DNA from: Escherichia coli
Lineage (GTDB): Bacteria; Pseudomonadota; Gammaproteobacteria; Enterobacterales; Enterobacteriaceae
Assembly: GCF_045037415.1 (NCBI RefSeq)
Contig: NZ_CP173438.1
Reading direction: 5' to 3' (one strand)
DNA length: 64,000 nucleotides
The notes below the pieces were generated by a model. It had not been told where the DNA came from and made no database searches. It saw nothing but the letters and a program-made list of their open reading frames with translations. This document shows, in pieces, positions 5,805 to 5,936 of the stretch. The position numbers were made by a program, and so were the translations under genes. The stretch's first letter is position 1. Every line of letters starts with the position of its first letter.

Positions 5805-5936
5805 GGCTTCTCTCCTGAAGAATTTATCTCTACTTATTCAGAGTACCGAACTTTACGGAAAATTCCGTAAGACCGCACCTTTTTGTGACGCCGACTACAC
5901 TATTTCAATGAGATAAGAGGCAAAGACAGGAAAATT

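What the first reader, a model, noticed from the sequence alone, without database searches (positions are those of the whole stretch)
5851..5868. Perfect 14-bp palindrome in the divergent ybhQ / ybhP promoter region
ACGGAAAATTCCGT lies between the divergently transcribed ybhQ and ybhP-clsB-ybhN units. A perfect dyad of this length in a divergent promoter is a typical dimeric transcription-factor operator, yet I know of no assigned regulator.
Basis: seen in the sequence. Interest (0 to 1): 0.2.

Follow-up and report, generated by a model that had tools for sequence, protein, structure and literature searches.

The report
Conserved regulatory dyad upstream of ybhP
An imperfect 18-bp inverted repeat between the E. 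coli genes ybhQ and ybhP is almost unchanged across enteric bacteria and is most likely an activator-binding site (best candidate: the envelope-stress regulator RcsB) for the ybhP-clsB-ybhN operon that also overlaps the -35 element of a sigma-E-type promoter for ybhQ; it is a plausible but ordinary kind of promoter element with no regulator shown experimentally.

Summary
The sequence is present but mis-described. ACGGAAAATTCCGT is not a perfect palindrome: it is two 8-bp arms (TTACGGAA/TTCCGTAA) around a non-symmetric AA, at 5853-5870. Dyads of this quality occur by chance about 5 times per 64 kb. Conservation makes it real: in 70 distinct enterobacterial intergenic sequences every dyad column is at least 93% conserved (mean 0.98, against 0.78 for the spacer outside the four conserved blocks). 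The element stays with ybhP in Rahnella, where ybhQ is absent. It lies 43 bp upstream of a CTACACT sigma-S-type -10, centred about -46.5 from the predicted ybhP start. Its core GGA-N4-TCC fits the published RcsB box core (RGA-N4-TCY) in 78/78 orthologues, though the outer T/A of that box are not matched. ybhP-clsB-ybhN is induced 4-33-fold by a LolCDE inhibitor together with classic Rcs genes. On the other strand, GGAATTT-N17-TCTGA forms a sigma-E-type promoter for ybhQ, which is sigma-E-induced in the literature. Best model: an RcsB-type activator site overlapping a sigma-E -35. Binding has not been tested. It is a new member of a known kind, of modest interest.

The parts
5853..5870 (.). Interrupted inverted repeat TTACGGAA-AA-TTCCGTAA (8-2-8). 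The conserved block extends to 5852 (TTTACGGAAAATTCCGTAA).
   Evidence: Base-by-base pairing check. Every column is at least 0.93 conserved in 70 distinct enterobacterial sequences, mean 0.98.
5855..5868 (.). RcsB-box-like 14-mer ACGGAAAATTCCGT. The core GGA-AAAT-TCC fits RGA-N4-TCY. The outer positions are A/T where the published box has T/A.
   Evidence: Published box TN(G/A)GA-N4-TC(T/C)NA (PMC7913699). 78/78 orthologous sites fit the core; G5858, A5859, T5864 and C5865 are invariant; 5857 is only G/A and 5866 only C/T.
5858..5866 (-). Sigma-E-type -35 element GGAATTTTC (consensus GGAACTTTT) of the predicted ybhQ promoter, lying inside the dyad.
   Evidence: Consensus from PMC1312014. Kept as GGAATTTTC in 63/70 sequences. 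Pattern hit GGAATTT-N17-TCTGA.
5838..5846 (-). Sigma-E-type -10 region GTACTCTGA (TCTGA at 5842->5838). The predicted ybhQ start is about 5831-5833 (inferred).
   Evidence: GTA[CG]TCT is invariant in 70 sequences. The block is absent in Rahnella loci that lack ybhQ. Spacing rules from PMC1312014.
5895..5901 (+). CTACACT: -10 hexamer TACACT preceded by C at -13, a sigma-S-type -10 for ybhP-clsB-ybhN. The predicted start is about 5908 (inferred).
   Evidence: Block GACTACACTATTT has mean conservation 0.96. It is kept in Rahnella and Erwiniaceae. ybhPO is 251x/7x RpoS-dependent (PMC2907692). That CTAYACT with C(-13) marks sigma-S promoters is from my own knowledge.
5880..5889 (+). Conserved block TTTTTGTGAC in the ybhP promoter spacer (about -28 to -19). 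Its function is unexplained.
   Evidence: All 10 columns at 0.89-1.00, mean 0.98. Kept in Erwiniaceae and in three of the four Rahnella loci; L055 has TTTGGTAAC.
5394..5804 (-). ybhQ coding sequence (136 aa inner-membrane protein).
   Evidence: ORF list and RefSeq annotation.
5937..8892 (+). ybhP (5937-6698), clsB (6695-7936) and ybhN (7936-8892), an operon with overlapping stop/start codons.
   Evidence: ORF list and annotation. Co-induction of all three genes (PMC5105897).

Best explanation
The dyad is a functional cis-regulatory element of a compact (132 bp) bidirectional stress promoter and does two jobs. (1) For the plus-strand ybhP-clsB-ybhN operon it is an upstream activator site, centred about 46.5 bp before the predicted start of a sigma-S-type promoter that has a good CTACACT -10 and no recognisable -35. 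The most likely binder is a dimer of a NarL/FixJ-type response regulator, specifically phosphorylated RcsB, reading the two GGA/TCC half-sites. RcsB would then recruit RNA polymerase when the Rcs envelope-stress phosphorelay is on. (2) On the minus strand, the centre and right arm of the same dyad (GGAATTTTC) serve as the -35 of a sigma-E-type promoter (GGAATTT-N17-TCTGA) for ybhQ. Shown here: the symmetry, the conservation, the fixed spacing to the ybhP -10, and the persistence with ybhP when ybhQ is absent. Taken from the literature: RpoS dependence of ybhP, sigma-E induction of ybhQ, a sigma-E ChIP peak in Salmonella, and co-induction with Rcs genes. Inferred: both transcription starts, RcsB as the binder, and any interference between RcsB and sigma-E RNA polymerase.
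For: Conservation: the mean majority frequency is 0.98 for the dyad, against 0.78 for the spacer outside the four conserved blocks, in 70 distinct sequences from 76 species that keep ybhQ<->ybhP. Link to ybhP: four Rahnella loci have ybhP without ybhQ and keep the element plus the ybhP core blocks but not the minus-strand -10 block. The dyad-to-CTAYACT distance is 43 bp in 64 of 65 loci. RcsB-like core: the published box is TN(G/A)GA-N4-TC(T/C)NA, read mainly through the GA/TC bases (PMC7913699). 78/78 sites fit RGA-N4-TCY, and every substitution falls on R, Y or N4 positions. EMSA-validated or regulon boxes are very similar: nlpD TCGGAATATTCCCA and ycfJ TCGGAGTTGTCCGA. Position: -53..-40, compared with activating boxes at -50..-36 (ytfK) and -55..-41 (the sigma-S gene yciG). 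Expression: a LolCDE inhibitor induces ybhP 17.6x/33x, clsB 12x/24x and ybhN 4.4x/9x, among rcsA, yjbEFG, ivy, ymgDG and wzc. ClsB protein changes with Wca/Wza proteins on LptC depletion. Sigma-S: ybhPO is 251x/7x RpoS-dependent. Sigma-E: ybhQ is induced 5x by rpoE overexpression. A sigma-E ChIP-seq peak and consensus lie in the Salmonella ybhP/ybhQ spacer. A ybhQ TSS is activated on sigma-E induction. The -35 is kept in 63/70 sequences and GTA[CG]TCT is invariant.
Against: No binding or mutant data exist for this site. The two outer positions of the RcsB box (T1, A14) are A and T here, and conserved as such, so the strict published pattern does not match. The core pattern carries only about 10 bits, and the chance that a dyad of this geometry fits it is about 1 in 32. 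RcsB overexpression arrays did not list ybhP, although that list is short with low fold changes. The LolCDE-inhibitor stress also induces RpoS and Cpx, so the induction could be indirect. In Erwiniaceae the right half loses the T of TCC and the element lies 12 bp further upstream. The sigma-E pattern alone is no more frequent than chance (2 observed, 2.2 expected). Its spacer is 17, not the preferred 16, and Rhodius et al. did not list ybhQ. Both transcription starts are predictions.
Confidence: 0.5

Rival explanations
1. The dyad is the operator of a different, possibly uncharacterised, dimeric transcription factor (another NarL/FixJ-type, TetR-type or other HTH dimer) that controls ybhP and/or ybhQ. 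The RcsB-core resemblance is coincidental.
For: Conservation extends over 18-19 bp, including the outer TTAC/GTAA that the 14-bp RcsB box does not require. The outer T/A of the RcsB box are not matched. 8-2-8 dyads are common operator geometries (own knowledge). No regulator is assigned in the papers I opened.
Against: Jejubacter and Entomohabitans lose the outer symmetry (TTTAAGGA.., TTTCAGGA..) but keep GGA-N4-TCC. The neighbouring TetR gene cecR has its own, unrelated operator-like repeat TCTTAATCAA-N4-TTGATTAAGA. The NarL heptamer TACYYMT matches only 4/7 per half (sequence comparison; consensus from own knowledge). No candidate protein can be named.
Confidence: 0.22
2. No dedicated regulator binds the dyad. 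The conservation reflects only overlapping core-promoter constraints (the sigma-E -35 GGAATTTTC for ybhQ plus upstream contacts of the ybhP promoter), and the twofold symmetry is incidental.
For: 9 of the 19 conserved bases are accounted for by the extended sigma-E -35. A compact 132-bp spacer carries two promoters.
Against: The element persists with ybhP in Rahnella, where there is no ybhQ and no sigma-E -10 block. The bases outside the -35 (TTTACG, GTAA) are equally conserved. The sequence is not A/T-only as an UP element would be. The ybhP promoter lacks a -35 and so probably needs an activator (inference).
Confidence: 0.15
3. The left arm is half of a CpxR-type direct repeat on the minus strand (GTAAA-GTTCG-GTACT, 5856->5842) that controls ybhQ. 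The inverted symmetry is irrelevant.
For: 8/10 match to GTAAA-N5-GTAAA (consensus from own knowledge), with conserved pentamers and a variable 5-nt spacer. The Cpx regulon is also induced by the LolCDE inhibitor.
Against: The second pentamer is better explained as the extended sigma-E -10, because GTA[CG]TCT is conserved as a unit. ybhQ and ybhP do not appear in the CpxR-regulon section of PMC2731931 (the only ybhQ hit is in the sigma-E table). This model does not explain conservation of the right arm or of the element in Rahnella.
Confidence: 0.05
4. The dyad acts as a nucleic-acid hairpin (RNA stem-loop, attenuator, terminator or cruciform).
For: A 7-bp stem with a 4-nt loop can form: -5.4 kcal/mol as DNA, z = -2.6.
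Against: The hairpin is weak, A/T-rich and has no U-tract. It lies upstream of both predicted starts, so it is probably not transcribed. Half-site changes occur singly (left only in L005/8/16/24; right only in L020/67/68) without compensation. There is no Rfam match.
Confidence: 0.03
5. It is a chance inverted repeat without function.
For: Dyads of this quality are expected about 5.5 times per 64 kb.
Against: Near-invariance across about 90 loci from three families, while surrounding spacer positions vary.
Confidence: 0.02

Closest known systems
RcsB box of RcsB~P homodimer-activated promoters (e.g. Salmonella/E. coli ytfK, yciG, osmB, ycfJ, rprA)
   Same: Pseudo-palindrome with GA-N4-TC read by a NarL/FixJ-type HTH dimer. 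The core RGA-N4-TCY is matched in all orthologues, and N4 is A/T-rich. It sits just upstream of where a -35 would be, at -53..-40. The target operon is co-induced with the Rcs regulon, and several RcsB targets are likewise sigma-S-dependent.
   Different: The outer T(1)/A(14) of the box are A/T here, with T and A displaced one base outward. The conserved block is 19 bp rather than 14 bp. There is no binding or rcsB-mutant evidence. In Erwiniaceae the right half-site is degenerate and the element is 12 bp further upstream.
Sigma-E (RpoE) promoters of the E. coli envelope-stress regulon (GGAACTT-N16-TCAAA)
   Same: Minus strand GGAATTTTC ... TCTGA at the right distance from the ybhQ start codon. 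ybhQ is induced by rpoE overexpression, and a sigma-E ChIP peak lies in the Salmonella spacer.
   Different: C-to-T change in the AAC core of the -35, and a 17-nt rather than 16-nt spacer. It is not among the promoters validated by Rhodius et al., and the TSS has not been mapped here. The -35 is embedded in a symmetric element.
NarL/NarP 7-2-7 sites (TACYYMT-NN-AKRRGTA)
   Same: Same 7-2-7 geometry with TAC...GTA at the outer ends (TACGGAA-AA-TTCCGTA). RcsB belongs to the same protein family.
   Different: Positions 4, 5 and 7 of each heptamer do not fit (GG and A instead of YY and T). There is no evidence that the operon responds to nitrate.
Compact divergent promoters with a shared regulator site
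   Same: One short spacer (132 bp), two back-to-back promoters, and a single symmetric site between or overlapping them.
   Different: Here the two promoters appear to use different alternative sigma factors (sigma-S and sigma-E), and the site overlaps the -35 of one of them.

Membership tests
RcsB box (homodimeric RcsB~P site) | Pseudo-palindromic core (G/A)GA-N4-TC(T/C) | tested here: met
   GGA-AAAT-TCC at 5857-5866. 78/78 enterobacterial and Rahnella orthologues fit. In Erwiniaceae the T of TC becomes G/A.
RcsB box (homodimeric RcsB~P site) | T at position 1 and A at position 14 of TN(G/A)GA-N4-TC(T/C)NA | tested here: not met
   A5855 and T5868 in E. coli and most species. The strict pattern does not hit this site. 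Position 1 is T in Erwiniaceae and in two Rahnella loci.
RcsB box (homodimeric RcsB~P site) | Located upstream of, and close to, the activated promoter | tested here: inconclusive
   -53..-40 relative to a predicted, not mapped, start at about 5908. Published activating boxes lie at -50..-36 and -55..-41.
RcsB box (homodimeric RcsB~P site) | Target expression depends on RcsB / Rcs activation | tested here: inconclusive
   Strong co-induction with Rcs genes under LolCDE inhibition and LptC depletion, but absent from an RcsB-overexpression list. No rcsB-mutant data were found.
RcsB box (homodimeric RcsB~P site) | Physical binding of RcsB~P | not testable with these tools
   Needs EMSA, footprinting or ChIP.
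Sigma-E promoter | -35 GGAACTT and -10 TCAAA-like motif, separated by 15-19 nt (16 preferred) | tested here: met
   GGAATTT (6/7), 17 nt, TCTGA on the minus strand. Rules from PMC1312014. The pattern alone is at chance frequency: 2 observed, 2.2 expected.
Sigma-E promoter | Sigma-E-dependent expression and sigma-E occupancy | tested here: met
   From the literature only: ybhQ 5x on rpoE overexpression, a TSS activated on sigma-E induction, and a ChIP-seq peak with consensus in the Salmonella spacer.
Sigma-E promoter | Mapped sigma-E-dependent transcription start 5-6 nt after the -10 | not tested
ybhQ is not in Rhodius' validated set.
Sigma-S-dependent promoter | -10 of type CTAYACT (C at -13) and RpoS-dependent expression | tested here: met
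   CTACACT at 5895-5901, conserved. ybhPO is 251x/7x RpoS-dependent. The motif definition is from own knowledge.
NarL/NarP 7-2-7 site | Two inverted TACYYMT heptamers separated by 2 bp | tested here: not met
   The geometry matches, but each heptamer TACGGAA fits only 4/7 (consensus from own knowledge).
CecR (TetR-family neighbour) operator | Similarity to the repeat in the cecR promoter | tested here: not met
   The cecR promoter carries TCTTAATCAA-N4-TTGATTAAGA, unrelated to the dyad. There is no second dyad-like site within 18 kb.
   The reverse complement of ACGGAAAATTCCGT is ACGGAATTTTCCGT.

The most novel reading that the evidence does not exclude
The dyad is a hard-wired switch between two envelope-stress responses. 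RcsB~P binding would activate the sigma-S-dependent cardiolipin-synthase operon ybhP-clsB-ybhN. By sitting on the -35, it would at the same time exclude sigma-E RNA polymerase from the ybhQ promoter, and vice versa, giving mutually exclusive Rcs and sigma-E outputs from one 18-bp site. A second novel reading is that the site belongs to a still-uncharacterised regulator.
Probability: 0.15. Interest if true: 0.5.

Novelty: new member of a known kind. Interest (0 to 1): 0.3.

Why it matters
ClsB is one of three E. coli cardiolipin synthases, and no transcription factor was assigned to its operon in the papers I could open; they report only RpoS and ppGpp effects. A direct RcsB site would tie envelope-damage sensing to phospholipid remodelling, and would explain why clsB responds so specifically to lipoprotein-trafficking and LPS-transport defects. 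The overlap with a sigma-E -35 would be a simple, testable case of cross-talk between two envelope-stress regulons. It also shows that strict-pattern genome scans for RcsB boxes miss conserved sites whose outer positions deviate.

Tried and rejected
- **Second copies of the dyad:** none in the window or in 18 kb around it at up to 3 mismatches, apart from an overlapping 3-mismatch hit 10 bp upstream.
- **Generic scans:** the sigma-70 promoter scan found nothing in the spacer, and the terminator scan found only a weak hit inside ybhP.
- **Hairpin or RNA element:** weak fold, no compensatory changes, no Rfam hit.
- **CecR as binder:** its own promoter has an unrelated repeat.
- **NarL/NarP, CRP/FNR, IclR/AllR, LacI/PurR, ArgR, DeoR, TyrR and OmpR-type consensus sequences:** compared by eye from memory. 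None fits both spacing and sequence; this is a lead-level rejection only.
- **Sigma-28:** GCCGACTA resembles a -10, but there is no -35 and the bases are not conserved.
- **Literature dead ends:** the b-number/STM-number search returned only noise. Supplements of PMC7913699 and PMC7075262 are not held. Laubacher & Ades 2008 is not held. The cap on new papers stopped me reading the ExcludonFinder and carbon-regulation papers that mention ybhQ.
- **Wider sampling through the Rahnella protein:** it gave no Serratia or Yersinia orthologues, so Yersiniaceae could not be sampled further.
- **Sigma-E scoring matrix:** it could not be built because the sequences of Rhodius' Table 1 are not held.

Full report
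**1. What is in the sequence.**
The window is E. coli. The region 5700-6050 is present in 5,423 of 5,426 complete E. coli genomes and is annotated as ybhQ / ybhP. ybhQ runs on the minus strand (5394-5804). ybhP (5937-6698), clsB (6695-7936) and ybhN (7936-8892) follow on the plus strand with overlapping stops and starts.

The quoted string ACGGAAAATTCCGT is at 5855-5868. It is not a perfect palindrome. Its reverse complement is ACGGAATTTTCCGT, and the two central A's do not pair. The true symmetry is TTACGGAA-AA-TTCCGTAA, with 8-bp arms and a 2-bp spacer, at 5853-5870.

Such dyads are not rare. Scanning for arms of at least 8 bp and spacers of 0-4 returned 11 hits (8 distinct dyads) in the window, against 5.5 +/- 2.1 in Markov-1 simulations. 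There is no second copy.

**2. Conservation makes it real.**
I fetched 80 loci encoding YbhP from one genome per species. In 76 of them ybhQ is divergent from ybhP, and the spacer length is almost fixed at 130-135 bp. An alignment of the 70 distinct spacers shows four conserved blocks:

| Block | Coordinates | Sequence | Mean majority frequency |
|---|---|---|---|
| A | 5840-5846 | AGAGTAC | 0.95 |
| Dyad | 5852-5870 | TTTACGGAAAATTCCGTAA | 0.98 (every column at least 0.93) |
| C | 5880-5889 | TTTTTGTGAC | 0.98 |
| D | 5893-5905 | GACTACACTATTT | 0.96 |
| Spacer outside the four blocks | – | – | 0.78 |

**3. Which gene does the dyad belong to?**
Four Rahnella loci carry ybhP without an upstream ybhQ. 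They keep a dyad-like element (TTTACGGAGAAATCTGTAA, TTTACGGAAAAATCTGTAA, TTTGGGAAAAATCCATAA) and the CTAYACT -10. Three of the four also keep a clear block C (TTTTCGTGAC; L055 has TTTGGTAAC). All four lack block A.

The nearest relatives of the Rahnella protein are all Enterobacteriaceae. The operon was therefore probably acquired horizontally together with its promoter; this is an inference.

The distance from the dyad to CTAYACT is 43 bp in 64 of 65 loci. So the dyad travels with ybhP, and block A travels with ybhQ.

**4. The ybhP promoter.**
Block D contains CTACACT: a TACACT hexamer with C at -13, the hallmark of sigma-S-dependent -10 elements (own knowledge). No -35 is recognisable; the sequence 17 bp upstream of the -10 is CCGCAC. 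ybhPO is 251-fold and 7-fold RpoS-dependent in EDL933 (PMC2907692).

With the -10 at 5896-5901, the start is predicted near 5908. The dyad centre (5861.5) then lies at about -46.5.

**5. Candidate binder.**
The homodimeric RcsB box has been delimited structurally as TN(G/A)GA-N4-TC(T/C)NA, with read-out mainly through the GA/TC bases (PMC7913699). The dyad's centre GGA-AAAT-TCC matches RGA-N4-TCY.

Across 78 orthologous sites:
- G5858, A5859, T5864 and C5865 never change.
- 5857 is only G or A.
- 5866 is only C or T.
- The remaining changes fall within N4 (5860 and 5863).

This is exactly the degeneracy of the box. Jejubacter (TTTAAGGAAAATTCCGTAT) and Entomohabitans (TTTCAGGATAATTCCGTAA) lose the outer TTAC symmetry but keep the core.

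Published boxes are very similar: nlpD TCGGAATATTCCCA (EMSA-validated) and ycfJ TCGGAGTTGTCCGA. Activating boxes lie at -50..-36 (ytfK) and -55..-41 (yciG, itself a sigma-S gene). Here the box would be at -53..-40.

Expression data fit this reading:
- A LolCDE inhibitor, a strong Rcs inducer, raises ybhP 17.6-fold and 33-fold, clsB 12-fold and 24-fold, and ybhN 4.4-fold and 9-fold. They appear in the same table as rcsA, yjbEFG, ivy, ymgD/G and wzc. The clsB response was confirmed by qPCR and was not seen with several other antibiotics (PMC5105897).
- ClsB protein changes together with Wca/Wza proteins on LptC depletion (PMC4072712).

**6. Weaknesses of the RcsB assignment.**
- The outer T(1)/A(14) of the box are A/T here and are conserved as such, so the strict pattern misses the site.
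- The core pattern holds only about 10 bits.
- An RcsB-overexpression array did not list ybhP, though that list is short and even wca genes rose only 1.6-1.9-fold.
- The inducing stresses also raise RpoS and Cpx.
- In six Erwiniaceae loci the left half is canonical (TCGGA), but the right half is GCC/ACC and the element lies 55 bp rather than 43 bp from the -10.
- There are no binding data.

I put RcsB itself at roughly even odds. I put 'a dimeric regulator binds here' considerably higher.

**7. The other strand.**
Read on the minus strand, the centre and right arm give GGAATTTTC, followed (17 nt after GGAATTT) by TCTGA. Rhodius et al. define the sigma-E motifs as GGAACTTTT and (T/C)GGTCAAAA, with a spacer of 15-19 nt (16 preferred) (PMC1312014). 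The pattern alone is at chance frequency, 2 hits against 2.2 expected, and ybhQ is not in their validated list.

Other evidence supports it:
- ybhQ is induced 5-fold by rpoE overexpression, and was also reported by Kabir et al. (PMC2731931).
- A ybhQ start site is activated on sigma-E induction (PMC7075262).
- A sigma-E ChIP-seq peak with the consensus lies in the Salmonella ybhP/ybhQ spacer (PMC4577112).
- The -35 is kept in 63/70 sequences, and GTA[CG]TCT of the -10 block is invariant.
- Block A disappears where ybhQ is absent.

About half of the dyad is therefore also a sigma-E-type -35. This alone cannot explain the equal conservation of the left arm, or the persistence of the element in Rahnella.

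**8. Alternatives examined.**
- **Hairpin:** only -5.4 kcal/mol, lying upstream of both predicted starts. Half-site changes occur singly without compensation, and there is no Rfam hit.
- **CecR, the nearby TetR-family regulator:** its own promoter has an unrelated perfect repeat.
- **NarL 7-2-7:** the geometry fits, but the heptamers match only 4/7.
- **CpxR-like direct repeat on the minus strand (GTAAA-N5-GTACT):** possible, but its second half is better explained as the sigma-E -10 region.
- **Chance:** excluded by conservation.

**9. Verdict.**
This is a real, strongly conserved cis-regulatory element, mis-described as a perfect palindrome.

The best model is an RcsB-box-like activator site for the sigma-S-type ybhP-clsB-ybhN promoter that overlaps the -35 of a sigma-E-type ybhQ promoter.

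It is a new member of known kinds of element, not a new mechanism. Its interest is modest, coming mainly from the possible Rcs-to-cardiolipin link and from Rcs/sigma-E cross-talk at one site.

Noticed in passing
window 5880-5891, and L085 2968-2979 (rhlE-cecR spacer, just outside the window): The conserved block C of the ybhP promoter, TTTTTGTGACGC, occurs as an identical 12-mer in the rhlE-cecR intergenic region about 6 kb away (chance roughly 0.003). TGTGA-N6-CTACA at 5884-5899 is an 8/10 CRP-like site overlapping the ybhP -10. Its function is unexplained.
   Followed up: partly
L085 3056-3079 (13 bp before the cecR start codon; outside the window): Perfect inverted repeat with 10-bp arms, TCTTAATCAA-TCAT-TTGATTAAGA, probably the CecR (TetR-family) operator.
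   Followed up: partly
window 35149-35162 and 35437-35450: Two strict RcsB-box matches (TCGGAATTTTCCCA and TGAGACTATTCTAA) lie 288 bp apart in the modE-acrZ-modA regulatory region. The second is about 107 nt upstream of the modA start codon. The count equals chance expectation for the window, but PMC7913699 reports an RcsB box in the Salmonella modA 5'UTR with RcsB-dependent repression.
   Followed up: partly
window 5394-5432: The 3' ends of the convergent genes ybhR (+, ends at 5432) and ybhQ (-, ends at 5394) overlap by 39 nt. This convergent coding overlap could cause transcriptional interference.
   Followed up: no
L001 (NZ_AADV02000322.1, 'Crocosphaera watsonii WH 8501', 2,043-bp contig): A contig of a cyanobacterial assembly carries ybhQ/ybhP at 99-100% identity to E. 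coli. This is almost certainly E. coli contamination of that assembly.
   Followed up: no
L040, L055, L056, L058 (Rahnella spp.): ybhP-clsB-ybhN sits downstream of unrelated co-directional genes without ybhQ. The protein's closest relatives are all Enterobacteriaceae, suggesting horizontal acquisition of the operon with its promoter.
   Followed up: partly
L081-L084, L087, L089 (Erwiniaceae): A 12-bp insertion separates the dyad-like element from the ybhP core promoter (55 bp rather than 43 bp to CTACACT), and the spacer is 179-236 bp. ybhQ lies next to rhlE or a cytochrome b561-like gene instead of ybhR.
   Followed up: partly
window 26787-26818, 28317-28337, 29552-29572, 46179-46197, 59744-59765: Other strong inverted repeats in the window. 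The largest has 14-bp arms (CCCCAGTCACTTAC-ATAA-GTAAGTGACTGGGG). Others are TTCTGTATGACTCATACAGAA and GCAGTTAAAATTTTTAACTGC. None was identified.
   Followed up: no
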